57,294 bases of DNA from the IMG/VR virus record IMGVR_UViG_3300025875_000027, positions 1-57,294 of that record; one strand, given 5' to 3'. Of the stretch, positions 4,813-27,856 are shown one piece after another. Made by a program: the position numbers and the translations under genes. Each line of letters begins with the position of its first letter. The stretch's first letter is position 1. The notes under the pieces are model-generated. The model was not told the origin of the DNA and searched no databases. It worked only from the letters and a program-made list of their open reading frames with translations. Origin of the DNA: a virus. Its lineage: Duplodnaviria > Caudoviricetes.

Positions 4813-5384
4813 CGCAGGTGCTTTATCTTCGCCGTGCTGACTGGCGGGCGCGCAGTTGCACACAGGCCGAGGTCGTCGACTTCATCGAGCGCGTGCACTA
4901 CGCCGGCGGCGCCCCGAACACGTCCGTAGCGCGACACGGCCTGTGCCCGGTCGATGACGACAAGCTGGCTGGTGTGGCTTTGTGGTTGCCGCCGACCCGA
5001 CGGGCCGCCGAGTCCGTTGACCGGGACAACCCGCGGGGTGTTCTGGCTCTCTCTCGACTGTGCATCGCGCCGGGGATGCCCACCAACTCCGCGAGCTTTC
5101 TGCTGGGCGCCTCGATGCGCCGGATAGACCGGGCGGCCTGGCCGACGCTGCTTACCTACGCCGACACCCGTGAGGGGCACACCGGGGCGATCTACCGCGC
5201 GACCAACTGGGAGTGTCTGGGCGAGGTTCCTGGATCTGACGCCTGGGCACATCGGGTTACCGGCGAACGTCGTGGTCGTAAGCGGGGGAAGCGAAACCTG
5301 TCGGCTGTGGAGATGCGTGAGCTGGGGTTCGAGCAGTTGCCGAAGATGCCGAAGATCAAGTTCGTCCATAGGAGTGACGCATGA
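4809..5384 (+). CDS. Mom-like (GNAT-fold) DNA adenine modification enzyme
   Basis: FIERVHY, LSRLC, NSASFLLG, TYAD..GHTGAIYRATNW motifs of the Mu Mom-like family. Confidence 0.8.
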   Translation: MTQVLYLRRADWRARSCTQAEVVDFIERVHYAGGAPNTSVARHGLCPVDDDKLAGVALWLPPTRRAAESVDRDNPRGVLALSRLCIAPGMPTNSASFLLGASMRRIDRAAWPTLLTYADTREGHTGAIYRATNWECLGEVPGSDAWAHRVTGERRGRKRGKRNLSAVEMRELGFEQLPKMPKIKFVHRSDA

Positions 5385-7252
5385 GCGGCACGCTGCAGAC
5401 CGTCCTCGACTCCATCGGCTATTTGCTGCGCCCCCAGCAGCAGCGCCTCTACGACGCCCTCTCGCCGAACAACACCGACATGCGCACATCCGGCGTCGTC
5501 GCCCAAGCCGGCACGGGTACCGGTAAGTCCCTCGCCGTGCTGTGCGCCGCGGTCGACTGGGCCCGCAAGACGCACAAGACCTCCCTCGTGGTCTGCCCGA
5601 CCAACGTGCTGCTCGACCAGTACCTCACCGTGGACGCCCCGCGGGTCTCGGCCGCCACCGGTGTGACGATCGAGAGTCTGAAGGGCCGCAACCGCTACCT
5701 CTGCGAGTCCGCGAACGGCTTCAGCGACATCTCCCAGCCGCCGGCGTGGGTCATGCCCGAGATCCCCGCCATGAGCGACCACCTGGCAGACATGTTCAAC
5801 GGCGGGCCCGCGTTCGAGCCCGAGAACACCCAGTGGTTCGGCTGCCCCGGTGGCGAGGAGTGCGACCCCGAGCTCACCTGCCACTACCGCCAGCAGAAGA
5901 TCCGCGCGCAGGCCGCTGACGTCATCGTCACGAACAGCCACCTGCTGATCATCGACAACCAGTTCAAGCGGATGCAGGCCGCCGACCCCGACTTCGGCCG
6001 CAAGAAGCCCCCGGCCATGGAGCAGGACGACCGCGACTTCGAGCCGGACGAGTACCAGCAGCCCGAGGAGGAGCTGCCCATCCTGATCTTCCCGCCGCTC
6101 GGCGTCGTCTTCGTCGACGAGGCCCACGTCTTGGAGGACAGTCTGCGCGAGTTCGCCAGCCGCTCGATTCCCTCCAGCGCCTGCGACGGCCAGCTCCTCG
6201 GCTACTGGATCGACAGCCAGGTCAACCAGCTGCCGACCGACCGCCGCGGCCAGAAGGAGGCCACGGCCATCACCGGCGACGCCGACCTCGCCGCGGCGCT
6301 GCAGGACATGGCTGCCGTCCCCGAGAACACCCCGAAGGGCATCAGGCTGGCCAAGCGGGTGCGCGAGGCCGCCGAGTCGGCCGCCTACGTCCTCCAGCGC
6401 GCCCAGAACAAGGCGTACAGCTCGGGGTCCGCGGTGCTCTACCTGCAGCCCGCCGAGCGCGGGACCAACCAGTCGAACAAGCTCGTCTCGACGCAGATCG
6501 ACATGAGCCTGGCCGCCGCGGGCATCCTCACCTCGCAGCCGTTCGGGATGGTCTCGGCCACCATCCCGAAGTCGATGCGCAACGCGCTCGGCGTGCCCGA
6601 GGCGCTCTTCGTCGACGTCGGCCACCCCTTCGACTACTCGCGCCAGGCCCGCCTGGGCTTCTCCGCGTACACCGGGGCCTGGAAGTACGCCGACCGCGCG
6701 AACAAGCAGGCTCGCGCCGAGGAGATCCAGCAGCGCGTGCTGGCCGCGGGCGGCGGCGCCCTCCTGCTCTTCCCGAGCTACCGCGATCTGGAGGAGGTCT
6801 ACAAGCAGATCGCGGGCCCCCTGCACCTGGCGGGCCTGACCGTGCTGAAGCAGGAGCGCGAGTCGAACAAGGCGCTGCTCGGCGAGCGGTTCAAGCGCGA
6901 CGGCAACGCCGTCCTCTTCGGTACCGAGAGCTTCGCCACCGGCTTCGACGCGCCGGGTAGCGCACTGCGGTTGGTCAGCATCTGGAAGCTGCCCTACCCC
7001 GGCCTCGACCCGGTGACCAAGGCCATCAGCGCGCGGGACTACACCCGCTACCAGGACATGATGCTGACCAAGGTCGCCCAGGCCGCAGGTCGCCTCATCC
7101 GCACCTCCACCGACGTCGGAGAGGTCTGGATCTCCGACGTGCGTGCCCGCGGCACGATCCTCGGCACGGGCGACCCGATGCTGCGCCACTTCGACGAGTT
7201 CCAGCTGATCCCCGCCGCCCCGCGGCCGGCCGACGACATCGAGATGAACTGA
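5381..7252 (+). CDS. DinG/YoaA-family SF2 helicase
   Basis: Q motif RPQQ, AGTGTGKS, LKGRNRYLC plus Cys cluster, ADVIVTNSHLL, DEAH, SAT, LFPSY, QAAGRLIR..DVG. Confidence 0.88.
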   Translation: MSGTLQTVLDSIGYLLRPQQQRLYDALSPNNTDMRTSGVVAQAGTGTGKSLAVLCAAVDWARKTHKTSLVVCPTNVLLDQYLTVDAPRVSAATGVTIESLKGRNRYLCESANGFSDISQPPAWVMPEIPAMSDHLADMFNGGPAFEPENTQWFGCPGGEECDPELTCHYRQQKIRAQAADVIVTNSHLLIIDNQFKRMQAADPDFGRKKPPAMEQDDRDFEPDEYQQPEEELPILIFPPLGVVFVDEAHVLEDSLREFASRSIPSSACDGQLLGYWIDSQVNQLPTDRRGQKEATAITGDADLAAALQDMAAVPENTPKGIRLAKRVREAAESAAYVLQRAQNKAYSSGSAVLYLQPAERGTNQSNKLVSTQIDMSLAAAGILTSQPFGMVSATIPKSMRNALGVPEALFVDVGHPFDYSRQARLGFSAYTGAWKYADRANKQARAEEIQQRVLAAGGGALLLFPSYRDLEEVYKQIAGPLHLAGLTVLKQERESNKALLGERFKRDGNAVLFGTESFATGFDAPGSALRLVSIWKLPYPGLDPVTKAISARDYTRYQDMMLTKVAQAAGRLIRTSTDVGEVWISDVRARGTILGTGDPMLRHFDEFQLIPAAPRPADDIEMN

Positions 7253-7689
7253 TGCCCAGCGGCCACCCCGGCACTCTCACGCATGGCCTGAGTGCTGCGA
7301 TGAACGGTTTATGTAAGTGCAAGGAGATATGTCGTCCTGCAGCCAATGCTAATCAGCGTGCCGAACGTGCAGCGCGCAAGGCCGCACGTCACGACCTCAC
7401 TCCGTTGTGCTTCGATGCCAAGGGCACCTTGCTCATCAGTTCATCCGACGGCGCCTGCCTGCGCGCCTTCCTGATCGACGGTGGCGACAACGAGACCGTT
7501 GGCCGACGAGCCAACATGAGTAGCAAGCAGGCCAGCCTCCACCTGAAGCGCATCCAAGACGCCTTCGGATTCACCAGTCGCGCCGAGCTGGCCGTCGCCC
7601 TCCTTCGCAGCACTGTGACGGCACGTGTAGCCTCGTCCTCCAGCGGCGAGACGCCGTCCGATCTGGCGAGAAGCCAGGAAGGAGCATGA
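7252..7689 (+). CDS. putative DNA-binding protein (HG..CKC..C motif plus LuxR-like HTH)
   Basis: NETVGRRANMSSKQASLHLKRIQDAFGFTSRAELAV. Confidence 0.65.
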   Translation: MPSGHPGTLTHGLSAAMNGLCKCKEICRPAANANQRAERAARKAARHDLTPLCFDAKGTLLISSSDGACLRAFLIDGGDNETVGRRANMSSKQASLHLKRIQDAFGFTSRAELAVALLRSTVTARVASSSSGETPSDLARSQEGA

Positions 7690-8246
7690 TCATGGCAGGG
7701 ATGTTGCCAGGCCCGGCCGCGAAGCCGGATGACGTGCGACAGCGCGCGAACCAGCCCGCCTCCGGCGAGCAGACCGTCGTCACCCCCGAGGGCGTGCCGT
7801 CCTACGTCGACATGGTGCCCGAACCGCCGGAGCCGCCGGCCCAGTGGCACCCGCGGGCCCGAGCCTTCTACGACCGACTGCTCCACGACCCGGCGCGCAT
7901 GACCATGACCGGCGCCGACTGGGAACTGGCCATGTTCATGCTGGAGAACTTGCACCGCTCCCTGCAGCCGCAGGTGGTTGCCACCATCCCCAGCAAGGTC
8001 GAGGACGGCGTCGCCATCCCCGGTGACGTCATCCGTGAGCCGGTGCCCATGAACGGGAGCCAGCAGATGGCCTTCCTCCGCTGGGCGGCGATGGTCGGCA
8101 TCACCGAGGGCGCCCGTCGCGCTCTCGGGATCCACGTCAAGCTCGGCGTCACCACCGAGACCGTCCAGGGCGGCCAGCCCGTGGGCGTCGTCAAGAGCCG
8201 TGCGGACCTCATGCTGGTCCCGCCGCCGGAAGAGGAGCAGGGCTGA
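7686..8246 (+). CDS. terminase small subunit
   Basis: GPAAKP..RQRAN, WHPRARAFY, DW, GITEGARR; upstream of TerL. Confidence 0.75.
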   Translation: MIMAGMLPGPAAKPDDVRQRANQPASGEQTVVTPEGVPSYVDMVPEPPEPPAQWHPRARAFYDRLLHDPARMTMTGADWELAMFMLENLHRSLQPQVVATIPSKVEDGVAIPGDVIREPVPMNGSQQMAFLRWAAMVGITEGARRALGIHVKLGVTTETVQGGQPVGVVKSRADLMLVPPPEEEQG

Positions 8247-8709: not shown

Positions 8710-9092
8710 TGTCCATCGAGTTCGGAGTCGGCCTCGACGCCAAGCGCTCCCCGCACCTCATCAGCTTCTCGCCGGCGCGCGATGGGTGGTTCACCTGCTG
8801 TGGCGACCGTCCGGCCACCGAGACGGCCATGGGCACCGCCATCCCCTGCGAGCAGTGCCTGCAGATCGCGCAGGACATCCAGCAGGGCACCGACATGATC
8901 GACCAGGACCGCCCCGGCTGGCTGCAGACCTGGAGCGACGACGACATCGTCATCGTGCCCCTCGACGACCACATCATCCACGAGGTGCACGGCGGCGCCT
9001 CATGCCCCTGTGGCCCCACGCCGGAGACCCTGTCCGAGGTCACCACGATGTGGGCCCACCACTCTCTCGACGGCCGAGAAGCCCGTGAGTGA
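8709..9092 (+). CDS. Cys/His-rich hypothetical protein
   Basis: CPCGP..HHSLDGRE motif; coupled start. Confidence 0.7.
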   Translation: MSIEFGVGLDAKRSPHLISFSPARDGWFTCCGDRPATETAMGTAIPCEQCLQIAQDIQQGTDMIDQDRPGWLQTWSDDDIVIVPLDDHIIHEVHGGASCPCGPTPETLSEVTTMWAHHSLDGREARE

Positions 9093-9225
9093 GCCGGTCG
9101 ACTCTCGCGGCGGTCAGCACAGTATCGGGAACCTCGTCGCCGCGTGTGTAAGCTGTAACTCCTCGAAGCGCGACAGCTTCGTGATGGAGTGGCGCCGCCG
9201 GCGCCCCGTTGGGCGAGGGAGGTGA
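9089..9225 (+). pseudogene. truncated HNH endonuclease (C-terminal half only)
   Basis: SRGGQHSIGNLVAACVSCNSSK present; the N-terminal CxxC and DH motif are missing. Confidence 0.7.
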
Positions 9226-9227
9226 TC

Positions 9228-11177
9228 ATGGCTACCCCCCTTCAGACCTCAGGACTTCCTGCATTCCACGTTCAGGCCCAGCACTATGGGCCGACCTGGG
9301 AGGAGAACCCCGACTGGGACGGCATCGACCAGTTCGAGCGCTACCTCCTCCCCGAGTGGACTCTCGGCTACCAGGCCATCGACTGGGCCTACGAGAACTT
9401 GCTGTCTCCCGACTCCACCGAGCATGACCCGAAGCCGTACCGGCCCACGCCGGAGCAGTATCGGTTCATCCTCTGGTGGTACGCAGTCGACGAGAACGGC
9501 GCCTTCAGCTACCGCACCGGAATCCTGCAGCGTCTGAAGGGGTGGTAGCTGCGCACATGAGGCAAGGACCCGATCATCTCGGTCATCGCTGCGATCGAGT
9601 TCCTGGGGCCGTGTCGCTTCGCCGGCTGGACGCCGGTCGACCGCCCCGAGTTCGGCTTCCGTCCGAACGGTGAGCCCGCGGTGCGCGCCGGCGACCCAGT
9701 GGCCAAGGACAACCCGGTCGCCTGGATCCAGATCGCCGCGGTGTCCCGCACTCAGACCAAGAACACGATGCTGCTCTTCCCGCAGCTCCTGTCCCCGCAG
9801 CTGCGCAAGAAGTCGGGCATCACGAAGGCCACGATGCACACCAGCATCATCACGGCCTACAACAACACCCGGCGCATCGAGGCCGTCACCTCGAACCCCC
9901 GCACCCTCGAAGGTGGCCGCCCGACCCTGACCATCGGCAACGAGCCGCACCAGTGGGTCTCGGCCAACAAGGGCCACGACATGGCCGACGTGATCGACCG
10001 CAACGCTGTGAAGTCGAAGAACGGCGAGTCGCGCGTCCTGTGGATCACGAACGCCTACGAGCCCAGCGAGGACTCCGTTGGCCAGCGGCTGCGCGAGGCG
10101 TGGGAGGCCCAGGAGGCGGGTCTGGCGTTCAAGACGGGTACGCTCTACGACTCCCTCGAAGCCCCCCGCGGCATCGGCCTGCGCCCGCCTCAGAAGGACG
10201 GCGAACCCGACCCCGACGAGCGCACCGTCCGCGCCTGGCTGCGCGCGGTGCTGCTGGCCGTCCGCGGCGACAGCTTCTGGCTGAACATCAAGTCGATCAC
10301 CGACGCCATCCTGAACCCGAAGAACGCGCCCTCGACCTCGCGGCGCTTCTACCTGAATCAGGTCGTTGCCGACGAGGACGCCAGCTTCGACCCCGGCGCC
10401 ATCCTCGCGGCGGCCGACCCGATCGCCCGCTCGGAGCGCGAGCTGGCCAGCCGTGACGGCCGGGACATCACCCGCGCCGGGTGGATCGTCGCCCCCGACG
10501 AGCCGATCGTCGCCTTCTTCGACGGCTCGAAGTCCGACGACTCCACCGCCCTCGTGGCCTGCCGCATCTCCGACGGCTACTGCTTCACCATCGGCACCTG
10601 GAACCGCCCCCTGCAGAAGGAGCGGGCCAAAGGCTGGCTCGCGCCGCGGCAGGACGTCGACGATCGCGTGAAGGAGATGTTCCGCCGCTTCCGCGTGGTG
10701 GCCTTCTTCGCCGACCCCTCGCACACGAAGGACGACTCGGGCCTGCGCTACTGGGACAGCCTGATCGACGACTGGCACCGCCTCTACGGTGAGCAGCTCC
10801 TGCTGTGGTCGATCAAGAGCGGCGCGAACACCCACTCGATCCTCTGGGACATGACCAGCATCGAGCGTCAGCGCCAGTTCGTGGCCGGCGTCGAGCGCAC
10901 CACCACCGAGCTGGAGCACAAGGACGCCTTCGGGGACTGGCAGCCCGAGTTCCGCCACGACGGCGACCCGATCCTGATGACCCACATGAAGAACTCCCGG
11001 CGCGCGCCCAACGACCTCGGGGTGTCCATGCGCAAGGAGAACCGCGAGTCCCTGAAGAAGATCGACGCCGCGGTCTGTCTCGTGGGGGCGCGGATGCTTC
11101 GGCGAGCCGTACTCAATGCCGGGATCGAGGAGCAACCCGAGGAGCACCCGTCGGTCGGGTACGCTTACGCCGTCTGA
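9228..11177 (+). CDS. terL: terminase large subunit, interrupted by a 15-nt in-frame insert (9546-9560) containing TAG and TGA
   Basis: TPEQYRFILWWYAVD, Walker A RLKGW|GKDP, VSRTQTKNT, EGGRPT..NE, ITNAY, RRFYLNQ, FDGSKSDDSTAL, KIDAAV; both halves are in the same frame. Confidence 0.92.
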
Positions 11178-11184
11178 GGAGGCG

Positions 11185-12783
11185 ATGGTGGCATTCACCC
11201 CGGTGCTGATGCAGCACCCGAAGAACCCGGAGCTCCAGGAGACGGCCAGCACGCCCGCTGAGCTGGCCCAACTGGAGTGGGACGGGTGGCGCAAGGTCGG
11301 CACTCCTCCCGTGTCTCAGACCTCTCTCCAGAAGCTCCTGAGCTACTTCACGACCGAGGGCAAGGTCAAGGAGGTGGCTCTGCCGGCCCGCCTGTCCCAG
11401 ACGGAACTGAGGGCGGCCTCTGGGACAGTCGCCCGGCAGGCGGCCGTCTCCGCTGCCGGCACGGCACTGGGCAACACGCTGGTGAAGATCGGGGTGGTCC
11501 TGGACAAGGGCGCCCCGGGCGACTTCGACAGCGAGGCCGTTGAGTCGCTGTCGCCCTTCCATGACCCGGAGTCCGGCCGGATCGGTGGCGTCTACACCGG
11601 CTACGGGCTGAACGCCGACGGGAAGATGGTCGCCAGCATCGGCCTGGCCTACAGCGACGACGGGATCAGCTGGGAGAAGGCTGGCCAGCTCATCGGTGGA
11701 TCCGGCATCGACGGCTCACCCGACAAAGCCGGCTGCACCGGGCCGCTGATCATCTGGCACGGCGGTATCTACTACCTGTTCCGCATCGGGCTGACCGAGG
11801 TCGGCTACGAGGCCGGTCTAAAGCAGGTGGTCGTCTCCTCCACGCCGTCGCTGGCGAACCCCGCCTGGACTCACCACGGGGTGGCGCTCGCCCCGAACCC
11901 GGCGGTGTCGTGGCGATCCGACGCGGTCTGGCACGCCAACATCGTCGAGTGGAAGGGCCGGCCGTACTGCTTCATCAACGCCACCAGCTCCGACGGCAAG
12001 GAGCGGATCGGCTACGCCGTCTCCACGTGGGAGCAGTTCCCCCTCGGCTGGGTCTTCGACGACGTCAACAGTCCGCTGCTGGAGGGCGGCGAGTACGACT
12101 TCATCGCAGGTGACCCTCACGTCCGCAAGACCCCGGACGGTTGGCGCATGGACTACTTCACCGCCTGGGCGGAGGGTGCCTACGACTGGTACACCACCAC
12201 CACGGAAGAGGCGTTCCCGCTCGGCTGGAAGCCCCACGACGGAAACGACACCCGGCGCATGACCATTGCCCCTGGACCGCCTGGCTCGTACGACAGCTTC
12301 TACGCGCACAAGCCGATCATCTTCCACCAGGCTGGGCGGCTGCTGCACTACTACACCGCGGTGATGGCGGGCGGCACTAACCGCCGGGTCGCCCTGGCCA
12401 TCGACCCCGCGGCCTACGGCTACGCGACCAACCCGATTCCCGAGGTCGCCGCAGCGCGCACGACCACCGGCACGATGGCCACGATGGCCACCTCCACGAT
12501 CATGTTCCCTTCTGCCGGGCGAAGGGGGCTGGAGATGCGCCTCGCCATCCGGGGCAATCCCGGAGCGACGGCGACGATGAGCGTCCGCGTGCTCGACCGC
12601 CCCGACTCGGCAGTCACTCTCGTCGGGAACGGCGATCCCAACAACTGGCAGAACGCCGCTGGCCCCTGGGTGCCCGTCCCCGACGGGGACATCTTCTTCG
12701 CCTACCTGCAATGGACGAGTAGCGACGGCACCCCCGTCACCTTCGGCAACGGTTCCGTCGAGTTCCGCTGGGTCGACATCTGA
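11185..12783 (+). CDS. virion-associated protein with a glycoside-hydrolase-like beta-propeller and a C-terminal beta domain
   Basis: Repeated IGLAYSDDGISWEK / IGYAVS blades, GDPHV, HKPII (GH32/43/130-like). Confidence 0.65.
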   Translation: MVAFTPVLMQHPKNPELQETASTPAELAQLEWDGWRKVGTPPVSQTSLQKLLSYFTTEGKVKEVALPARLSQTELRAASGTVARQAAVSAAGTALGNTLVKIGVVLDKGAPGDFDSEAVESLSPFHDPESGRIGGVYTGYGLNADGKMVASIGLAYSDDGISWEKAGQLIGGSGIDGSPDKAGCTGPLIIWHGGIYYLFRIGLTEVGYEAGLKQVVVSSTPSLANPAWTHHGVALAPNPAVSWRSDAVWHANIVEWKGRPYCFINATSSDGKERIGYAVSTWEQFPLGWVFDDVNSPLLEGGEYDFIAGDPHVRKTPDGWRMDYFTAWAEGAYDWYTTTTEEAFPLGWKPHDGNDTRRMTIAPGPPGSYDSFYAHKPIIFHQAGRLLHYYTAVMAGGTNRRVALAIDPAAYGYATNPIPEVAAARTTTGTMATMATSTIMFPSAGRRGLEMRLAIRGNPGATATMSVRVLDRPDSAVTLVGNGDPNNWQNAAGPWVPVPDGDIFFAYLQWTSSDGTPVTFGNGSVEFRWVDI

Positions 12784-21135: not shown

Positions 21136-21692
21136 TCGCCAGGTACCGCGAGCCGATCGAGCGCGACCTTGTCCAGCTGACCCAGAACCCCGAGGCTCTG
21201 GGTCAGCTGTGGCGTCGGCGCCAGTGGCGCCTCCTGCTCTCCCTGATCGACACGCGCTCGCCGTACTCACACCTGTCGATGGCCATGGCCAACGACGTCG
21301 AGTACGTCCAGTCGCAGATCGACCGCGCCGGCAACACGGCCGACCTGACCGGCTCGGGGCCTCGCAACCCTCCCCTCACCGAGTGGTCGATGCTCGCCGA
21401 GAAGATGGCCGAGAACACCGAGGAGGTCCGCGCGCTGAAGGTGGCCTTCGTGGCGGCCAACAGCAAGAAGGGCGCCAAGAAGCCCGAGTGGCGCCCCGTC
21501 CTGCGACCCATCGGTGTCATGGCCGAGCTGCTGAAGAAGAAGCGCTACGAGAACCACTACGCGCTTCGGGCTAGGCTGATGCCGGGGAAGTACGGGACAC
21601 CCGAGCAGAAGGCCGCGGCCAGAGCTCGCGCCGCGACCAAGACGAAGGAGACCACGGTGGACAAGCGGGCCAACTTCGTCAGGCGACCCTGA
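20779..21692 (+). CDS. tail assembly chaperone GT via -1 frameshift at G GGA AAC (21108-21114)
   Basis: X XXY YYZ heptamer in the correct phase; -1 frame open (LVARYREPIERDL..LWRRRQWRLLLSLID) to 21692. Confidence 0.85.
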
Positions 21693-24600
21693 TGCCGGCG
21701 CCCTACTCGGCCGGCTCGATCTTCGTGTCGGTCGTCCCGAGCTTCAAGGACAACCAGCGCAGCATCGCCCGCGAGTACCAGCGCCGTGGCGAGGAGGCCA
21801 GCAAGTCGTTCTCTGACGGCTTCGACAAGCAGATCGCCCGCGACCTGCCCAAGGCCATGGAGAAGGCGGCCAAGGCGAGCAAGCCCGCCCAGGCCGAGGC
21901 GGGCAACGAGGCGGGCAAGGAGTACAGCAGCGCTTTTCGCAAGAGCCTCGTGGACGGCCTGAAGTCGGCCGAGCGCGACCTGGAGCGGGCGGTCGGCCCG
22001 AACGGCGAGATCAAGGTGCCGATCGACGCCGACCCGATGAAGTTCCGCAACCAGTTCAACGCCCTGGTGCGGGACGTTCGGCTCACCCGAGCGGATCTGG
22101 AGGTCGGCGCCGACGTCGGTCAGGCCCTGTACGACGTGGATCGCCTCCAGGCGAAGCTGGCCAGCTTGCGGGACCAGTCGGTGGACATCGACACCCGCAG
22201 CAACCTCTCGGCCGGTGCAGGGGCTCTGGACACCGCGGCCACTCGCGTGCGCCAGCAGGCCAACCTGATCCCCGAAGAGAGCCAGCAGGCGCAGCCGCAG
22301 CTCGGCGCCTTCCAGGCGTCCCTGCGCAGCCGCCTGGGCGCCGCCATGACCGCGCTGCCTCCGATCCCCGTGGACGCCGACATCACTCCGGCTGCGCAGA
22401 AGATCATCGAGTTCCGCACCGACGCCATGAACCTCATCGGGGACCTGGAGACCGATGTCCATCTCGACGGCGACGACACCCTCGCTCGCGCCCGCGCGCT
22501 CATGGCGCTACTGGAGGGCGTCGTCGAGACTGCCGATCCCGAGGTCGAGGTCGACGCCTCTTTCAACGCGGCCGGCGCGCTCGCCCAGTTGAAGACCTGG
22601 GAGGGTGCGGTCGATCCTGTCGAGGTGCCGATCGAGCCCGAGCTGGGCGCCTTCCGCCGCAAGCTGGCCGCCGCCACGCAGGCCGCCGCGTCCAACCTGC
22701 CCGAGCAGGGCGTCGGCAGCGCCACCCGCGGCGCCCTCACCAAGCTGTCCGCCGACGTCGACATCGACGACGCCGACGCCATCGCCGAGATGCAGGGCGT
22801 CATGGCCGTCCTGCAGGCCATCGTCGACAGCGCCGACCCGACGGTCGACGTGGGCACGAAGTACAACGCCGCCCAGGCGTTCGCACAGGTGAAGTCCTTC
22901 GTCGAGTCCGTCTCCCCGATCGAGATCCCCGTCGAGCCCGAGATGGGGTCCTTCCGCCGCAAGCTGGCCAGCGCCGCCGCGAGCGCTGCATCGAATCTGC
23001 CCGACGGCGGGGAAACCGGCAGTATCCGCGACACCCTGACCAGCCTGTCCACCGACCTGGACATCAACGCCGCGTCCGCGGTCGCCGAGATGCAGGGCGT
23101 CATGGCCGTCCTGCAGGCCGTCATCGACAGCGCCGACCCCACGGTCGACGTCGACACCAAGTACAACGCCGCGCAGGCGCTCGCGCAGGTCAAGGCGTTC
23201 GTCGACAGCGTCTCCCCGGTCCAGGTCGTCGTCGAGCCCGAGCTGGGGGCCTTCCGCACGCTGGTGGTCCGGCAGGTCAAGGAGGCCGCCGCCCAGCTGC
23301 CGAAGCTGGAGATCGACGCCGACTCCACTGACGCGCAGCGCGAGCTGGCCAGCATCCGCACCGAGCTGTCCACCCTCGCCGAGGACGTCAAGCTCGACAT
23401 GGACATCGAGGCGGTGCGCGAGAAGAGCCGCGAGCTGCAGGCCCGCCTCGCTGACCTCCGTGCCGAGAACGTGGACATCGACGTCGACGTCGACACCGCC
23501 CGCGCCATCGCCTCGCTGGAGAAGGTGGACCGAGCGGCCAGCGACGCTGACGGCGCGCTCCGGCGCAGCGGTCGCGGCGCCGACGACGGGGCCAACTCGT
23601 TCCGCGCCTTCTCCGGCGTCATCCTCGGTGTCGCCACGCTCGGCCCGGCCGCCATCCCGGTCATGGGCGCCATCGGCGCTGCCGCCGCGGCCACCGGCCC
23701 ACTGGCAGTCGCTGGCGCCCTCGGGCTCGGCGTGTTCGCCATGGGCATCATGGGCGTCTCGGACGCCCTGAGCGCCATGGGCAAGGTGCAGGACAACGCG
23801 GTCAAGGACGCCAAGGCGTACTCCGACGGCGTGCGCAACGCCAGCCGCGCGCTCGACGGCGCCGAGCAGGCTCTGGCCAGCGCCCAGCGCGCACGAGAGG
23901 ACCAGGCCAAGGACGGCCAGCGCTCCATCCGCAACGCCATCCGCTCGGTCGACGACGCCCGCCAGAACGCCGCCGAGGCTGGCGCCAGGGCCGAGGAGAA
24001 CGTCCAGCGGGCAGTGGAGGGCGTCGAGGACGCCCAGAAGGCTCTGACGTCCGCTCAGAGGGATGCCGAGCGCACTCAGCGCGGCCTCTCCGACGCCAAC
24101 CGCTCGGCGACCCAGGCCGAAGAGAACTTCGCCGACGCGCAGCGGGACGCCGAGAAGGCGCAGACCCGGCTGACCGAGGCCCGCGAGGAGGCCGGCGAGC
24201 GCATCCTGGAGCTGCGCGAGCAGATCCGCGGCGGCGCGCTCGACGAGCGCCGGGCCATCATGCAGCTGGCCGAGGCCGAGGTCGCCTACGCCAACGCCAT
24301 GGCCGACCCCGGCGCCACCCGCACCGAGCGCGAGCAGCTGCTGCTGTCCCTGGACGAGCAGCGCTTCCGGCTGGATCAGGTGCGCGACTCCAACCGCGAG
24401 CTCGCCGAAGAGGAGGCCGAGCGCGCCGCCAGCGGGATCGAGGGCAGCGAAGAGGTCGTCGCTGCCCAGGACGGCATCGTCGCCGCCAACGAGCGGGTCG
24501 AGGACGCCCAGCAGGGTGTGGTCGACGCCAACCAGCGGGTCGTCGACGCCCAGCAGGCCATCGTCGATGCCAACGAGCGCGTCGTCGAGGCCCAGGCCGG

Positions 24601-27600
24601 CGTGGTGGACGCCGTCGGCGAGGTCACCCGCGCACAGGCCGAGCAGCGCGCGAGCGCCGAGGACTCGGCCCGCTCGATCGCCGACGCCGAGGAGCGACTG
24701 CAGGACACCCGCGAGGACGTCGCCGATGCAGCCCTGCGTGCCAGCGAGGCCGTCACCGCGGCGCAGGCGCGGGTCGCCGACGCCCAGGCCGACTACGCCG
24801 ACGCCGTCGCCAAGACGTCGTCCTCCCAGGATGCCCTCGCGCTGTCCATGGCCAAGCTGTCCCCGGCCGGCCGCGAGTTCGCCGAGTACCTCTTCTCGCT
24901 GAAGCCCCTGCTGTCGGACCTGCAGGACACCGCGGCGGCTGGTCTGCTGCCCGGCCTGCAGGAGTACATCCAGGGCATCGTCACCACCCACGGCCCCCAG
25001 TTCAAGTCGATCATCGGCGGGATGTCCGAGGCGCTCGGCCAGATGTTCGTCGGCTTCGGCGAAGCGCTGCAGGGGTCGGAGTGGAGCGCCTTCTTCGACA
25101 TGCTGGAGAGCAAGGGCCCCGTCTTCCTCGGGCAGATCGGTGACGTCCTCACCAGCCTCGGGAACGGCGTCGCCTCCCTGCTGACCGCCTTCGCCCCCAG
25201 CGCGGAGAACTTCGGCAACGATCTGGTCGGCGCGGCCGGGGCCTTCGAGAAGTGGGCAGCCGGACTGAGCGAGACGCAGGGCTTCCAGGACTTCATGGCC
25301 TGGTGGGAGCGGGTCGGCCCCAAGGTCGTCGAGTTCTTCAAGCAGCTCGGTGACGCCGTGGTCAACATCGGCATCGCCCTCGCCCCCTACGGTGAGGATC
25401 TGCTGGAACTCTTCACCGGCATTCTGAACTGGATCAGCGAAACCGACACCGACAAGCTCGACGTCATCGTGACCACGATCCTCGGTCTGGTCATCGCCTT
25501 CCAGACGCTGGTGGGCCTCAACGCCCTCATCGGTGGCTTCTCGGTCATCACCGGCATCGCCTCCTCGGCCCTGACCGTCTTCAGTGGGTCGGCCGTAGCC
25601 GCCCAGGGGGCCATCGCGCCGATCGCCGCGCTGGTGATCATCGTGGTCGCCGCGCTCGCGCTCATCGGCATTGCGCTCTACCTGCTGTGGACGAACAGCG
25701 AGACCTTCCGGGACATCGTGATCGGCGTCTGGAACGCCGTGAGGACCGCGGCCGGCGCGGTCGCTGACTGGTTCATGGATCACGTCTGGCCGATCATGCA
25801 GACCGTCTTCCGCGCCATCGGCGACCTCGCCAGCTGGCTGTGGAACGACATCCTGCAGCCGATCTTCGAGGTCTGGCAGATCGCCTGGGGCGTCCTGTGG
25901 GGCTTCATCAAGGACGCCTGGGACACCGTCGGTTACCCGATGTTCCAGCTGATCTGGTCGATCATGCAGGAGACCTGGCAGATCATCGAGCCACTGCTGC
26001 AGTTGATCGGCATGGCTTTCGGCTTCCTCTGGGATCTGGTCAAGCTCGCCTGGGACGATACGGGCAAGCCGATCTTCGACGCCTTCATCGCCATCGTGAA
26101 GTTCTTGTGGGAATACGTCATCAGCCCGATCCTCGGGTTCGTCGTTGACCGCTGGGAGTGGATGTTCGGCATCATCAAGTCGGCCTGGGAAACGGTCGGC
26201 AAGCCGATCTTCGACTTACTGCAGGCCGTCGTTGAAGGTCTCGTCGGCGTCTTCCAAGGCAGCTTCGATGGCATCAAGGGCATCTGGGACGCCCTACTGG
26301 AAGTCTTCAAGGCGCCCATCAAGTTCGTCGTCGAGACGGTCCTCAACAAGGGGCTGATCGCGGGCATCAACACGCTCGCCGCCCCGTTCGTGGACGGCGA
26401 CTGGATCGCTCCGATCCCGCTGCCGGCAGGCTTCGCTTTCGGTGGTGCGATCCCGGGGAACTCGCCGAACAAGCGGGCCGACAACATTCCGATCATGGCG
26501 ACGGCCGGCGAGTTCATGCAGCCGGTCGATTCGGTGGACTACTACGGCACCGACTTCATGGAGGCCCTCCGCTCTCGCGCCATTCCGAGAGAGGCCCTGG
26601 CGGGCTATGCCTACGGTGGGCTCATCGACCCGATGTGGGATGCGGTTCGAGCGAAGCACCCCACCGCTCGGCTGACCAGCCACTACCGCCCTGGCGACCC
26701 CGGTTACCACGGCAAGAAGAAGGCCATCGACGTGGCTGGCTCAATGCCCTACCCCAGCGTCACGGGCGTTCGAGAGATGCTGGCCATCAACCGCACCATG
26801 GCCCAGCTGTTCCCGTACGCGGCCGAACTCATCCACAGTCAGCCTGGTGCCATCAACCTGATGGACGGTAAGCCGCACACCTACAGCGCTCAGACCCGCC
26901 GCGACCATGCCGACCACAACCATCTGGCGCTGGACTCGATCCTGCCCGGTAAGCACATGGCCAGCTTCACCGACGACGGTCTCGGCGCCTTCCTCGGGGA
27001 CCCGCTGGGCACGTTGCGGAACATGGTCACTGGGGCAGCGGGCTCACTGGGTGACACCGAAGTCGGTCAGATGTTGCTCAACATTCCCTTCGGTGTCGCC
27101 GACATGGCCAAGGATCGACTGGTCGGTATCGTGAGCGGTCTGCTCGATGCCGCCGGCAACGCGCTGGAATCCATCGGCGACGGCATCCTCGGGACAGTCG
27201 GCTTGGGTGACGACAACGACGTCGTTATGAAGAAGGCGAAGGGTGGCGTTCAGGAGCAGGTTCGCGGCGTTGCCGATCGTTACGGCTGGGGCTCCGGCGC
27301 CCAATGGACCGCGCTCTCCAACCTGATCCAGGGCGAGTCGGGCTGGAACATGAACGCGGCCAACCCGACCAGCTCGGCCCGCGGCCTGCTCCAGAAGATG
27401 ACTTCTCTGCACGGACCCGTCGAGAAGACTGCCGTCGGCCAGGCCGAGTGGGGCCTGAACTACATCGAGGACGCCTACGGTGACCCGGTGACCGCCTATC
27501 GTCGGTGGAACTCTCGCACCCCGCACTGGTATGCGGACGGCGGGCCGATCGAGGAGCGCTCGATCGCTGGACTGATCAACGGTGCGGGGATGACCCCCTA

Positions 27601-27856
27601 CTTGCACGACGACGGCGGCACCATCGACCCGGGTTGGAACCTGATCTACAACGCCACCCGTCAGCCCGAGGCATCGCTGAACCCGCAGCAGCTCGACAAC
27701 ATCGAGCGCATCGCCGACAGCGAGGGCGGGCGCAGGACCACCATCAACCTGCCTATGATGCCTCCCAAGAGCACCGCCGAAGAGATCGCTGGCGCGGTCG
27801 ACCACACCATCCGGTCCATCGAGCACGGCGGCGTTTGGGCAGAGGAGATCGGATGA
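21692..27856 (+). CDS. tape measure protein with C-terminal peptidase-like and lytic-transglycosylase-like domains
   Basis: 2054 aa; coiled coil; W-spaced repeats; TSHYRPGD..YH..AIDV..H.H; ESGWN..AANPTSSARGLLQ..YI..YG. Confidence 0.95.
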   Translation: MPAPYSAGSIFVSVVPSFKDNQRSIAREYQRRGEEASKSFSDGFDKQIARDLPKAMEKAAKASKPAQAEAGNEAGKEYSSAFRKSLVDGLKSAERDLERAVGPNGEIKVPIDADPMKFRNQFNALVRDVRLTRADLEVGADVGQALYDVDRLQAKLASLRDQSVDIDTRSNLSAGAGALDTAATRVRQQANLIPEESQQAQPQLGAFQASLRSRLGAAMTALPPIPVDADITPAAQKIIEFRTDAMNLIGDLETDVHLDGDDTLARARALMALLEGVVETADPEVEVDASFNAAGALAQLKTWEGAVDPVEVPIEPELGAFRRKLAAATQAAASNLPEQGVGSATRGALTKLSADVDIDDADAIAEMQGVMAVLQAIVDSADPTVDVGTKYNAAQAFAQVKSFVESVSPIEIPVEPEMGSFRRKLASAAASAASNLPDGGETGSIRDTLTSLSTDLDINAASAVAEMQGVMAVLQAVIDSADPTVDVDTKYNAAQALAQVKAFVDSVSPVQVVVEPELGAFRTLVVRQVKEAAAQLPKLEIDADSTDAQRELASIRTELSTLAEDVKLDMDIEAVREKSRELQARLADLRAENVDIDVDVDTARAIASLEKVDRAASDADGALRRSGRGADDGANSFRAFSGVILGVATLGPAAIPVMGAIGAAAAATGPLAVAGALGLGVFAMGIMGVSDALSAMGKVQDNAVKDAKAYSDGVRNASRALDGAEQALASAQRAREDQAKDGQRSIRNAIRSVDDARQNAAEAGARAEENVQRAVEGVEDAQKALTSAQRDAERTQRGLSDANRSATQAEENFADAQRDAEKAQTRLTEAREEAGERILELREQIRGGALDERRAIMQLAEAEVAYANAMADPGATRTEREQLLLSLDEQRFRLDQVRDSNRELAEEEAERAASGIEGSEEVVAAQDGIVAANERVEDAQQGVVDANQRVVDAQQAIVDANERVVEAQAGVVDAVGEVTRAQAEQRASAEDSARSIADAEERLQDTREDVADAALRASEAVTAAQARVADAQADYADAVAKTSSSQDALALSMAKLSPAGREFAEYLFSLKPLLSDLQDTAAAGLLPGLQEYIQGIVTTHGPQFKSIIGGMSEALGQMFVGFGEALQGSEWSAFFDMLESKGPVFLGQIGDVLTSLGNGVASLLTAFAPSAENFGNDLVGAAGAFEKWAAGLSETQGFQDFMAWWERVGPKVVEFFKQLGDAVVNIGIALAPYGEDLLELFTGILNWISETDTDKLDVIVTTILGLVIAFQTLVGLNALIGGFSVITGIASSALTVFSGSAVAAQGAIAPIAALVIIVVAALALIGIALYLLWTNSETFRDIVIGVWNAVRTAAGAVADWFMDHVWPIMQTVFRAIGDLASWLWNDILQPIFEVWQIAWGVLWGFIKDAWDTVGYPMFQLIWSIMQETWQIIEPLLQLIGMAFGFLWDLVKLAWDDTGKPIFDAFIAIVKFLWEYVISPILGFVVDRWEWMFGIIKSAWETVGKPIFDLLQAVVEGLVGVFQGSFDGIKGIWDALLEVFKAPIKFVVETVLNKGLIAGINTLAAPFVDGDWIAPIPLPAGFAFGGAIPGNSPNKRADNIPIMATAGEFMQPVDSVDYYGTDFMEALRSRAIPREALAGYAYGGLIDPMWDAVRAKHPTARLTSHYRPGDPGYHGKKKAIDVAGSMPYPSVTGVREMLAINRTMAQLFPYAAELIHSQPGAINLMDGKPHTYSAQTRRDHADHNHLALDSILPGKHMASFTDDGLGAFLGDPLGTLRNMVTGAAGSLGDTEVGQMLLNIPFGVADMAKDRLVGIVSGLLDAAGNALESIGDGILGTVGLGDDNDVVMKKAKGGVQEQVRGVADRYGWGSGAQWTALSNLIQGESGWNMNAANPTSSARGLLQKMTSLHGPVEKTAVGQAEWGLNYIEDAYGDPVTAYRRWNSRTPHWYADGGPIEERSIAGLINGAGMTPYLHDDGGTIDPGWNLIYNATRQPEASLNPQQLDNIERIADSEGGRRTTINLPMMPPKSTAEEIAGAVDHTIRSIEHGGVWAEEIG

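What the first reader, a model, noticed from the sequence alone, without database searches (positions are those of the whole stretch)
9540..9572. Terminase Walker A split by a 15-nt stop-containing insert: candidate programmed translational bypass
Seen: CAG CGT CTG AAG GGG TGG [TAG CTG CGC ACA TGA] GGC AAG GAC CCG. Removing 9546-9560 restores QRLKGWGKDP and gives one ORF of about 644 aa that is otherwise intact, and there is no in-frame start for the 3' half before GKDP. Known: KGWGKDP is the P-loop of this actinophage TerL family and TerL is essential. T4 gene 60 bypassing uses a take-off codon, a stop and a matched landing codon. From memory (please verify), a short bypass candidate was also proposed in the terminase of Streptomyces phage Hau3. 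Inference: peptidyl-tRNA-Trp takes off at UGG when the A site meets UAG, lands on the near-cognate UGA five codons later and resumes at GGC. That would be a stop-triggered, in-frame hop with a mismatched landing site that limits or times terminase synthesis.
Basis: partly seen in the sequence, partly recalled or inferred. Interest (0 to 1): 0.92.

Follow-up and report, generated by a model that had tools for sequence, protein, structure and literature searches.

The report
Stop-codon hop gap in phage terminase
A phage's essential DNA-packaging gene is interrupted inside its ATP-binding loop by 15 bases carrying two stop codons, and dozens of related phages carry similar tiny gaps at the same spot, which points to ribosomes routinely hopping over them.

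Summary
The large terminase (TerL) gene, 9228-11177, is interrupted after its Trp codon by an in-frame 15-nt stretch, TAG...TGA. Both halves are otherwise intact and sit in adjacent columns of an alignment of uninterrupted relatives. I examined 182 distinct TerL junctions from viral, metagenome and isolate-genome contigs. 67 carry gaps of 5-16 nt at this same P-loop site (46 distinct sequences, all three frame classes). In the two homology-picked sets, the gap starts with a stop or rare UUA codon in 26 of 28 cases. It ends in a codon matching the take-off codon in 25 of 28. One relative at 51% identity has TGG[TAG CTA TTT TGG]GGT, the same design with a cognate landing codon. The gaps are scattered over the TerL tree, with at least 29 gains or losses. 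The UUA-started form is published for Streptomyces phage phiHau3, with mass-spectrometry support for bypassing. I did not find the stop-started, in-frame and Trp take-off forms in print. My best reading is a programmed short translational bypass ("stop-hop"), at about 0.65. No protein or RNA data exist for this phage.

The parts
7686..8246 (+). small terminase subunit gene (context)
   Evidence: Pfam Terminase_7, E 1e-11
9010..9225 (+). HNH endonuclease gene directly upstream of TerL (context)
   Evidence: Pfam HNH, E 1e-5. Its stop TGA 9223-9225 lies 2 nt before the TerL start.
9228..9545 (+). TerL 5' coding part (106 codons), ending ...ILQRLKGW. It would also be released as a short product when termination occurs at UAG.
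9506..9513 (+). 5' arm (CAGCTACC) of a predicted hairpin. Its 3' arm GGTAGCTG (9544-9551) covers the take-off codon, the UAG and the start of the gap. GCCTT 9501-9505 can also pair with GAGGC 9559-9563.
   Evidence: MFE fold. The whole-region z-score is -0.43 (not significant) and the stem is not conserved in L225 or most Trp-class relatives, so this is only an observation.
9537..9542 (+). purine-rich, Shine-Dalgarno-like AAGGGG (codons Lys-Gly) directly 5' of the take-off codon
   Evidence: Sequence. The Gly codon here is GGG or GGA in 18 of 18 Trp-class junctions, against GGC in 83 of 115 uninterrupted ones. Any stimulatory role is inferred.
9543..9545 (+). proposed take-off codon UGG (Trp) in the ribosomal P site
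   Evidence: Last sense codon before the UAG. It aligns to the invariant W of KGWGKD.
9546..9560 (+). 15-nt coding gap, TAG CTG CGC ACA TGA. UAG (9546-9548) would be the slow A-site codon. UGA (9558-9560) would be the proposed near-cognate landing codon.
   Evidence: The 15-mer is not a repeated element in the window (3 matches at up to 3 mismatches, against 1.48 expected).
9561..11177 (+). TerL 3' coding part. It resumes at GGC (the Gly of the GK in the P-loop), runs for 538 codons and ends with a stop. Walker B-like ..IGNE.. and the nuclease Asp motifs are kept.

Best explanation
The 15 nt are a translational coding gap that a fraction of ribosomes hop over, so that one 644-aa TerL is made. 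The proposed steps are as follows. The ribosome decodes ...Lys-Gly-Trp. UAG then sits in the A site; it is a rare stop in this phage, so release should be slow. Peptidyl-tRNA-Trp un-pairs from UGG and the mRNA slides 15 nt. The anticodon re-pairs with UGA, matching at the first two positions. Decoding then resumes at GGC AAG GAC and rebuilds the invariant P-loop KGW-GKD. Ribosomes that do not hop terminate and release a 106-aa N-terminal fragment. The gap would therefore also set a low full-length:fragment ratio. Shown here: the anatomy, the integrity of both halves, and the family-wide pattern of such gaps. Inferred: that the hop occurs in this phage, the landing codon, the efficiency and the purpose.
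For: (1) Both halves are intact and abut exactly. They fall in adjacent alignment columns and keep 77 of 78 invariant residues. The C part is 51% and 49% identical to its nearest relatives over its full length.
(2) The rest of the 57-kb genome looks functional. CheckV completeness is 98%. The 952-aa primase, helicase, portal, major head, minor tail, endolysin and exonuclease genes are all open with PHROG hits, and a 2054-codon ORF (21692-27856; not searched against any family) is open.
(3) The site is recurrent. 8 of 77 IMG/VR relatives and 20 of 75 relatives in isolate or MAG genomes carry a gap at this site. Pattern scans added 17 Trp-class, 26 Gly-class and 4 further Trp-class cases in TerL context. 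In total there are 67 gapped junctions among 182 distinct ones, with 46 distinct gap strings.
(4) The gaps have the grammar of hops. In the two homology-picked sets the first gap codon is a stop or UUA in 26 of 28 cases; 4 of 64 codons would do this by chance. The last gap codon shares its first two bases with the take-off codon in 25 of 28. Lengths of 5-16 nt fall in all three frame classes (20/24/23). Only bypassing, not readthrough or a single-base frameshift, restores KGWGKD in every case.
(5) Every first-site gap in the IMG/VR set is followed by a full-length open C part of 451-537 aa; one runs open for 828 codons to the end of its locus.
(6) The nearest gapped relative, L225 (51% identity), has an in-frame 12-nt gap, TGG[TAG CTA TTT TGG]GGT, with a cognate landing codon. 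That gap is unchanged in 4 variants that differ at flanking synonymous sites.
(7) In a Trp-class clade of 12 distinct junctions, only gap positions 4 and 5 vary. TAG and the landing AGG are invariant although the flanks carry many synonymous changes.
(8) Plaque-forming phages (phiHau3, GreenWeasel, Triumph, BroPlease) carry the UUA form at this site. For phiHau3, Antonov et al. 2023 report full-length product in Streptomyces. In E. coli, with UAA replacing UUA, they report a junction peptide GWG|NDPLL by mass spectrometry (PMC10732093, passages and sections 3.4 and 'Phage UUA' read).
(9) The insert is not an assembler artefact. UAG ends only 2 of 37 genes in the window, against 34 for TGA.
Against: There is no protein, ribosome-profiling or RNA evidence for this phage. 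The exact 15-nt gap is a singleton. The only other holder is a 151-nt, depth-2.2 contig from another study, which covers the gap with 5 differences and no indel but reaches only 8 nt beyond it. The landing codon is near-cognate (UGA). Among relatives, 43 of 49 Gly-class gaps land on GGN, and the other 17 Trp-class gaps land on AGG (13) or TGG (4). An out-of-frame AGG at 9559-9561 could compete as a landing site. The predicted hairpin is not statistically supported (z -0.43) and is not conserved. Antonov et al. describe the recoded phiHau3 g6/7(UAA) product in E. coli as a faint band, so the yield here may be small. No cultured, plaque-forming phage with a stop-started gap appeared among the rows I could see: the top 40 of 1586 records and the top 25 of 582.
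Confidence: 0.65

Rival explanations
1. This is a dead allele. A recent 15-nt insertion inactivated TerL in a defective or dying phage lineage that the metagenome happened to capture. The resemblance to hop gaps in relatives would be a coincidence of a mutable site.
For: The gap sequence is a singleton. The landing codon is only near-cognate, and a competing out-of-frame AGG is present. No expression data exist (one search lists no RNA holder). 8 of the 20 gapped prophage genes in isolate genomes also have a second break, so some gapped genes could be decaying.
Against: 77 of 78 invariant residues are kept and there is no other lesion in 644 codons. All the other large genes checked are intact. 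The insert begins with a stop exactly after the take-off codon, ends one codon before the invariant GK, and is in frame. The second breaks in prophages are themselves the known phiHau3-type UUA gap with matched Ser codons, not random damage. A near-identical stretch, with no indel over the gap, is present in a contig from a second study.
Confidence: 0.15
2. Full-length TerL is made by another route. The candidates are double readthrough of UAG and UGA (adding 5 residues to the P-loop), removal of the 15 nt from the mRNA, or a sub-population of genomes that has lost the insert.
For: The gap is in frame, so readthrough would keep the frame. Contigs cannot show rare insert-less variants. tRNA-Trp is the classical near-cognate reader of UGA (recalled).
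Against: The window encodes no tRNA. TGA ends 34 of 37 genes, so it is not reassigned. Readthrough would place 5 extra residues in a loop that is invariant in 15 of 15 relatives, and it cannot explain the 47 of 67 relatives whose gaps change frame. No joint skipping 9546-9560 and no 15-nt deletion was listed in any of 4 runs. No excision of 5-16 nt from bacterial mRNA is known (recalled).
Confidence: 0.07
3. TerL works as two polypeptides. One would be a 106-aa N-terminal fragment. The other would be a separately initiated C-terminal protein.
For: Gene callers annotate the pieces as separate genes in GreenWeasel, Triumph and BroPlease. At least 30 clusters of such short N-fragments exist in the protein library.
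Against: The split falls inside the Walker A loop. There is no in-frame start before GTG 9681, 40 codons past the P-loop lysine. No promoter-like site is present. In relatives the C part is often in another frame, with no start codon.
Confidence: 0.03
4. The insert is a sequencing or assembly artefact.
For: The window is a metagenome-assembled viral contig.
Against: A separate Logan assembly of the probable source run matches 9294-10000 exactly at depth 27. A contig from another study also covers the gap without an indel. Similar gaps occur in complete isolate chromosomes and in cultured phages.
Confidence: 0.03

Closest known systems
Streptomyces phage phiHau3 terminase g6/g7 bypass (proposed by Smith et al. 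2013, which I could not read; tested by Antonov et al. 2023, PMC10732093)
   Same: It is the same protein family (40% identity) and the same P-loop site. There is a short gap directly after the take-off codon, a slow A-site codon, and resumption at the GK/KD codons.
   Different: phiHau3 takes off from GGC (Gly) one codon further 3'. It meets the rare sense codon UUA, skips 10 nt with a change of frame, and lands on a cognate GGU. Its proposed logic depends on bldA-tRNA availability in Streptomyces. Here take-off is from UGG (Trp), the trigger is a UAG stop, the gap is 15 nt and in frame, and the landing codon UGA is near-cognate. The nearest TerL relatives are in an Aeromicrobium MAG, not Streptomyces.
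Phage T4 gene 60 bypass of 50 nt
   Same: A take-off codon is followed at once by UAG, peptidyl-tRNA is retained, and decoding resumes after a landing codon. A conserved nascent peptide lies upstream (abstracts and passages).
   Different: T4 skips 50 nt at about 40% efficiency, using matched GGA codons, a take-off stem-loop and a defined nascent-peptide signal (passage). Here the gap is 15 nt, there is no supported structure, and the efficiency is unknown.
Synthetic 'stop-hops' in E. coli (matched codons flanking a stop; 9 nt encode one residue), as described in Atkins et al. 2016, PMC5009743
   Same: These are in-frame hops over a stop from a codon to a matching codon. Relatives such as L131 (GGT TGA GGT) and L018 (GGT TAG CTA GGT) have exactly this form.
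   Different: Those are engineered, low-level events. The review states that for natural in-frame stop hopping 'no occurences are known' (passage). Here the sequences are natural and lie in an essential gene.
Mitochondrial bypassing elements (byps) of Magnusiomyces capitatus
   Same: Many short inserts in essential genes are skipped by ribosomes, with an unused or slow A-site codon (passage; abstract-level text).
   Different: Byps occur at many sites in many genes of one genome and appear context-independent. Here there is one site (plus a second one in some Streptomyces prophages) in one gene family, spread across many phage genomes.
prfB (RF2) programmed +1 frameshift
   Same: A stop codon sits in the A site with a Shine-Dalgarno-like purine run just upstream (passage).
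   Different: RF2 shifts by one base onto an overlapping codon. Here a non-overlapping codon 15 nt away must be used.

Membership tests
Programmed translational bypassing (hop) | A non-coding block interrupts a coding sequence whose two flanks are contiguous in homologues | tested here: met
   The N and C parts fall in adjacent columns 110/111 of 15 uninterrupted relatives.
Programmed translational bypassing (hop) | The take-off codon is followed at once by a stop or slow-to-decode codon | tested here: met
   UGG is followed by UAG. UAG ends 2 of 37 genes in the window.
Programmed translational bypassing (hop) | A landing codon matches the take-off codon and lies directly 5' of the resume codon | tested here: inconclusive
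   UGA matches UGG at 2 of 3 positions. Relatives have cognate or two-base matches in 25 of 28 cases, and L225 has UGG...UGG.
Programmed translational bypassing (hop) | One polypeptide spanning the gap is made, without extra residues | not testable with these tools
   This needs mass spectrometry or a reporter assay. It is shown only for phiHau3 g6/7 with UAA in E. coli (PMC10732093).
Programmed translational bypassing (hop) | Stimulatory signals are present (nascent peptide, mRNA structure, internal SD) | tested here: inconclusive
   The conserved nascent peptide ...LWWYA.D...LQRLKGW and AAGGGR are present. The hairpin is not significant and not conserved.
phiHau3-type UUA-triggered TerL bypass | The gap lies in the TerL P-loop between KGWG and KDP | tested here: met
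   It is the same motif, one codon 5'.
phiHau3-type UUA-triggered TerL bypass | The rare Leu codon UUA is the A-site trigger (the bldA logic) | tested here: not met
   The trigger here is UAG. There is no TTA in the gap.
phiHau3-type UUA-triggered TerL bypass | The gap is frame-changing and 7-10 nt long | tested here: not met
   The gap is 15 nt and in frame.
Large terminase subunit (TerL) | An ATPase plus nuclease two-domain fold with a Walker A loop | tested here: met
   PHROG 9 hits on both halves. A model of an uninterrupted relative matches HK97, Sf6, T4, D6E and P74-26 TerL structures. KGWGKD lies in a strand-loop-helix element. Pfam TerL_ATPase matches only weakly (E 0.024, below the cut-off), and a PDB sequence search found nothing.
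Stop-codon reassignment or suppressor-tRNA readthrough | In-frame TAG or TGA codons occur in many genes, or a suppressor tRNA is encoded | tested here: not met
   No tRNA gene is present. Long genes are open under code 11. TGA ends 34 of 37 genes.
Pseudogene in a decayed prophage | There are further frameshifts or stops, lost conserved residues, and broken neighbouring genes | tested here: not met
   77 of 78 invariant residues are kept. Neighbouring and distant genes are intact. CheckV completeness is 98%.

The most novel reading that the evidence does not exclude
The Walker A loop of a large clade of actinobacterial phage terminases is a natural hot spot for stop-codon hops. Short gaps of 4-16 nt arise and are lost repeatedly, with at least 29 events on a 160-tip tree. 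They are kept under selection for a stop (or UUA) right after a Gly or Trp take-off codon and for a matching landing codon, and ribosomes read across them. This would be the first natural family of stop-hops, including in-frame ones. The implication would be that the conserved context (nascent ...LQRLKGW(G) plus the AAGGGN purine run) makes ribosomes hop-competent. Phages could then use the gap as a dial for terminase dose or timing, or to produce a separate N-terminal fragment. It might also blunt host sensors of TerL or nucleases that target this conserved DNA.
Probability: 0.55. Interest if true: 0.9.

Novelty: new variant of a known kind. Interest (0 to 1): 0.82.

Why it matters
Utilised translational bypassing is known from very few cases. 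The 2016 review by Atkins and colleagues states that no natural in-frame stop hop is known. If these gaps are hopped, they supply 46 or more natural sequence variants. These vary in take-off codon (Gly or Trp), trigger (UAG, UGA, UAA, UUA, AUA), length and landing codon (cognate or near-cognate), so the rules of short-range bypassing become directly testable.

The result also changes annotation practice. In my homology-picked samples, about 10-27% of these terminase genes are split at this site. They are currently called as two or three 'hypothetical' genes or as pseudogenes, which can wrongly mark a phage or prophage as defective.

Finally, it raises a biological question. It is unclear why so many phages throttle the synthesis of their packaging ATPase at the codons of its catalytic loop.

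Tried and rejected
Megablast of the TerL region against 50,697 phage records found nothing.

Pfam found no family for either half. It gave only a sub-threshold TerL_ATPase hit for uninterrupted relatives. A profile search of PDB sequences found nothing, so I used a predicted fold instead.

RNA structure: the 121-nt region folds no better than shuffles (z -0.43). The 8-bp stem that pairs the take-off/UAG region with 9506-9513 is absent from L225 and most Trp-class relatives. I do not count it as a signal.

Mobile-element idea: the 15-mer is not repeated in the window.

Internal promoter or terminator: none found beyond chance.

Expression: no RNA holder is listed among the sequencing runs. X2 is labelled RNA-Seq, but the tool flags it as probably DNA, and it holds only relatives' fragments.

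Cultured phage with a stop-started gap: none appeared among the 25 of 582 rows listed or the 40 of 1586 rows listed. The remaining rows were not inspected.

Host: the nearest TerL relatives are in an Aeromicrobium MAG at 49% identity. That is too distant to name a host.

Literature: six searches found only the UUA-type phiHau3 work. No report of stop-started or Trp take-off gaps in terminases turned up. Smith et al. 2013 (PMC3807479) is not held, so I know it only through Antonov et al. 2023. That paper's supplements (Supplementary Data 9, Tables 1-2, Figures 9-10) were not opened and might list further gapped genes.

Sampling caveats: the pattern scans required a TRR first codon, and one search also required a TGR landing codon. 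Counts of first and landing codons from those scans are therefore biased by design. The unbiased figures come only from the two homology-picked sets. The count of split N-fragments among the 150 library representatives (5 end in KGW, 18 end in KGWG, 7 have short out-of-frame tails, 39 are uninterrupted; 45 lacked my motif) is inflated, because short fragments form their own clusters.

Rows dropped: loci without the xRxKGW motif or without AARGAYCC within 45 nt were dropped (3 of 80; 5 of 80, one of them L214). C parts under 300 aa were left out of the trees.
Full report
**What is in the window**

The window is a complete-looking phage genome: an IMG/VR record of 57,294 bp with a CheckV estimate of 98%. 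GC content is about 68%. The genome encodes no tRNA.

The + strand carries a packaging and structural module:
- small terminase, 7686-8246
- HNH endonuclease, 9010-9225
- TerL
- portal, major head protein, minor tail protein and endolysin
- a 2054-codon ORF at 21692-27856, in the position of a tape-measure gene; it was not searched against any family

The - strand carries replication genes (a 952-aa primase, an exonuclease), and a helicase gene lies on the + strand at 5381-7252. Every one of these long genes is open under the standard bacterial code.

**The observation**

One search shows ...CTG AAG GGG TGG | TAG CTG CGC ACA TGA | GGC AAG GAC CCG..., with the 15-nt block at 9546-9560.

The 5' ORF starts at ATG 9228, behind a GGGAGG ribosome-binding site, and ends ...ILQRLKGW. 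The 3' part is open for 538 codons, from GGC 9561 to the stop at 11175-11177. Both parts hit PHROG 9, terminase large subunit.

I added the two parts, as separate fragments, to an alignment of 15 uninterrupted relatives. They occupy adjacent columns and keep 77 of 78 invariant positions.

K-G-W-G-K-D-P is invariant in those relatives. In an AlphaFold model of one of them (mean pLDDT 77) the motif forms the loop between a strand (83-87) and a helix (94-107), the classical P-loop arrangement. The model's best PDB matches are TerL structures: HK97 at E 1.6e-15, then Sf6, T4 gp17, D6E and P74-26.

There is no in-frame start between the gap and GTG 9681, and the ATG inside the gap is out of frame.

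An independent Logan assembly of the probable source run (a groundwater metagenome) reproduces 9294-10000 without a single difference, at depth 27. A 151-nt contig from a wastewater metagenome of another study covers 9429-9568 with 5 substitutions and no indel. It reaches only 8 nt past the gap and has depth 2.2, so it is weak support. No 15-nt deletion and no joint skipping the gap was listed in any of the four runs.

**The known precedent**

A tblastn search against 50,697 phage records found 1586 records with a TerL relative, all below 60% identity. Four cultured Streptomyces phages matched in two or three pieces: phiHau3, GreenWeasel, Triumph and BroPlease.

Their junction reads GGT TGG GGC [TTA CYC CGG T] AAG GAC. 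This is a 10-nt insert one codon 3' of ours.

According to Antonov et al. 2023 (PMC10732093; I read the abstract, sections 3.4 and 4, 'Phage UUA', and passages of 3.5-3.6), Smith et al. 2013 proposed UUA-triggered bypassing for it. Among 100 ter genes, only 3 had such UUA gaps (phiHau3 and the prophages of Streptomyces C.1 and S. catenulae). Antonov et al. obtained full-length product in Streptomyces. In E. coli, after replacing UUA by the stop UAA, they found a mass-spectrometric junction peptide, GWG|NDPLL. A stop codon at this very site can therefore trigger a hop, at least in that construct.

*Protein library.* Searching the 5.8-billion-protein collection with the 105-aa N-fragment, restricted to proteins of similar length, returned 25 proteins. 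Their sequences break down as follows:
- 4 end exactly at ...KGW, including the window's own
- 10 end at ...KGWG
- 6 run on for 3-17 out-of-frame residues
- 5 continue into GKD.. as fragments

*Homology-picked DNA sets.* With an alignment of these fragments I fetched DNA.
- Of the best 80 of 557 IMG/VR relatives, 77 had the motif and a resumption site, and 8 of those were gapped.
- Of the best 80 of 122 relatives in species-representative genomes, 75 qualified and 20 were gapped. These were mostly Streptomyces prophages, but also Actinoplanes and Lentzea.

*Pattern scans.* Scans of IMG/VR added 17 Trp take-off cases (of 18 matches) and 26 Gly take-off cases (of 32 matches) in TerL context. One scan of metagenome contigs added 4 more Trp-class cases (of 10 matches).

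*Totals.* Together this gives 206 TerL loci and 182 distinct junctions, of which 67 are gapped, with 46 distinct gap strings.

**The grammar of the gaps**

Gly-class gaps read TGG GGN [stop or UUA ... GGN] AAR GAY. Examples:
- GGT[TGAGGT]AAG, 6 nt
- GGT[TAGGT]AAG, 5 nt
- GGT[TGACTAGGC]AAG, 9 nt
- GGT[TAGTTGAACAGGC]AAG, 13 nt

Trp-class gaps read TGG [TAG .. AGG] GGY AAR (8 nt), TGG[TAG CTA TTT TGG]GGT (12 nt), and the window's own 15 nt.

In the two homology-picked sets, which put no condition on gap content, the counts are:
- First gap codon: a stop or UUA in 26 of 28 (TTA 15, TGA 5, TAG 4, TAA 2; the other two are GAT and ATA).
- Last gap codon: shares its first two bases with the take-off codon in 25 of 28.

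Gap lengths run from 5 to 16 nt and are spread over all three frame classes (20, 24 and 23). Readthrough, or a +1/-1 shift, could restore the invariant KGWGKD only in some cases. A hop from the take-off codon to the landing codon restores it in all.

Every first-site gap in the IMG/VR set is followed by a full-length open C part (451-537 aa; one runs open to the end of its locus).

Two groups show selection on the gap itself:
- In a Trp-class clade of 12 distinct junctions, TAG and the landing AGG never vary. Only gap positions 4 and 5 vary, although the flanking codons differ at many synonymous sites.
- In the L225 group, 4 variants differ at flanking synonymous sites while the 12-nt gap is unchanged.

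**Phylogenetic spread**

A tree of 160 C-part sequences needs at least 29 changes between gapped and ungapped states (an earlier 103-tip tree needed 20).

The window's TerL is sister to two ungapped genes from an Aeromicrobium MAG (support 0.855; 49% identity). It lies in a 9-tip clade (support 0.92) that also holds:
- the L225 group (Trp class, 12 nt)
- L008 (Gly class, 13 nt)
- further ungapped genes (five of the nine tips are ungapped, counting the two MAG genes)

Gaps therefore turn over quickly. I cannot say whether the window's gap and L225's gap share an origin, although both begin TAGCT after an identical CAGCGTCT.AAGGGGTGG.

**Mechanism proposed for the window**

With UGG in the P site and UAG in the A site, release should be slow, because UAG ends only 2 of 37 genes here, against 34 for TGA. 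Peptidyl-tRNA-Trp un-pairs and the mRNA slides 15 nt. The anticodon re-pairs with UGA at codon positions 1 and 2, and GGC enters the A site.

Possible stimulators are the conserved nascent peptide (...LWWYA.D...LQRLKGW) and the purine run AAGGGG directly 5' of the take-off codon. Atkins et al. 2016 suggested a nascent-peptide effect for KGWG (passage). The Gly codon in that run is GGG or GGA in 18 of 18 Trp-class junctions, but GGC in 83 of 115 ungapped ones. These junctions represent only about four lineages, so this is a hint, not a test.

A predicted hairpin pairs 9506-9513 with the take-off/UAG region and brings the landing site close. It is not significant and not conserved.

Weak points specific to this sequence are the near-cognate landing codon and an out-of-frame AGG at 9559-9561. 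AGG is the triplet that 13 other Trp-class gaps use for landing.

Ribosomes that terminate would release the 106-aa fragment. Whether that fragment has a role is unknown.

**Function**

That the gap lowers or times TerL synthesis follows from the design, but it is untested. The bldA/UUA growth-phase logic proposed for phiHau3 cannot apply to stop-started gaps.

Two further ideas are speculative:
- The gap might protect this conserved DNA from a homing nuclease, as suggested for the T4 gene 60 insert (passage).
- It might reduce exposure of TerL to host sensors that recognise it. I saw only the title and abstract of PMC13601566.

**Comparison with what is known, and novelty**

The kind is known: short bypassing at the TerL P-loop in phiHau3. 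It is only partly proven. The window fails two defining features of that published type, since it has no UUA trigger and its gap is not a frame-changing 7-10 nt. So it is not a member of the UUA class, although it most likely works the same way.

Six full-text searches found no description of the following in terminases:
- stop-started gaps
- in-frame gaps
- Trp take-off
- the scale of the phenomenon

The 2016 review says natural in-frame stop hopping is unknown. Smith et al. 2013 and the supplements of Antonov et al. 2023 could not be read, and they may contain more.

**Verdict**

I rate it a new variant of a known kind and of high interest. The window's case opens onto what looks like a large natural family of stop-hops.

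Noticed in passing
L214 (Amycolatopsis sp. genome contig), junction about 2720-2760: A different micro-gap lies two codons further on: GGC AAG GAC [AGAT] CCC CTC. Asp GAC is followed by the rare Arg codon AGA, and GAT sits 4 nt on, which would fit a 4-nt hop between matched Asp codons.
   Followed up: partly
L001, L002, L111, L132, L164, L174, L180, L186, L192, L197, L203 (second break, about 108-129 codons after the first): A second gap lies just before the Walker B strand (LEGARS|TFVVLNE): TCY [TTA RCG GKC C] ACG. It has matched Ser codons and UUA as the trigger. It is the UUA type even in genes whose first gap starts with TGA (L111, L132, L164, L174). 8 of the 20 gapped prophage genes in isolate genomes have a short C part of this kind.
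   Followed up: partly
L116 (IMG/VR contig), 327 codons after the first gap: An in-frame TGA sits at the position of the Ala in the conserved nuclease motif ..VVxFxADPxH.. (VVGAF*DPAHW), and the frame stays open after it. This could be readthrough, an error or decay.
   Followed up: no
L009 (IMG/VR contig, 53 kb), junction at about 2785: This is the only gap without a stop or a rare Leu codon: GGC [GAT TTT TTG GC] AAG, 11 nt with a T6 run. The resumed frame runs open for 828 codons to the end of the locus.
   Followed up: no
L195 (Streptomyces sp. genome contig): The gap GGC [ATA CCC CGG T] AAG is the phiHau3-type 10-nt gap with AUA in place of UUA. AUA is another very rare codon in high-GC genomes (1 use in about 11,000 codons of the window).
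   Followed up: no
window 11185-12780 (+): A 532-aa ORF lies between TerL and the portal gene. It has no PHROG hit at E 1e-5, which is unusual for that position.
   Followed up: no
window 9501-9563: There is an 8-bp perfect complement between CAGCTACC (9506-9513, codons Ser-Tyr-Arg) and GGTAGCTG (9544-9551, the take-off codon, UAG and CT). GCCTT can also pair with GAGGC at the landing site. This would fold the gap interior out as a 7-nt bulge. It is not significant by shuffling and not conserved.
   Followed up: yes
GreenWeasel, Triumph and BroPlease records (L002-L004): The public annotations call the TerL pieces as separate 'hypothetical protein' and 'terminase' genes. The phiHau3 record uses a misc_feature instead.
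   Followed up: no
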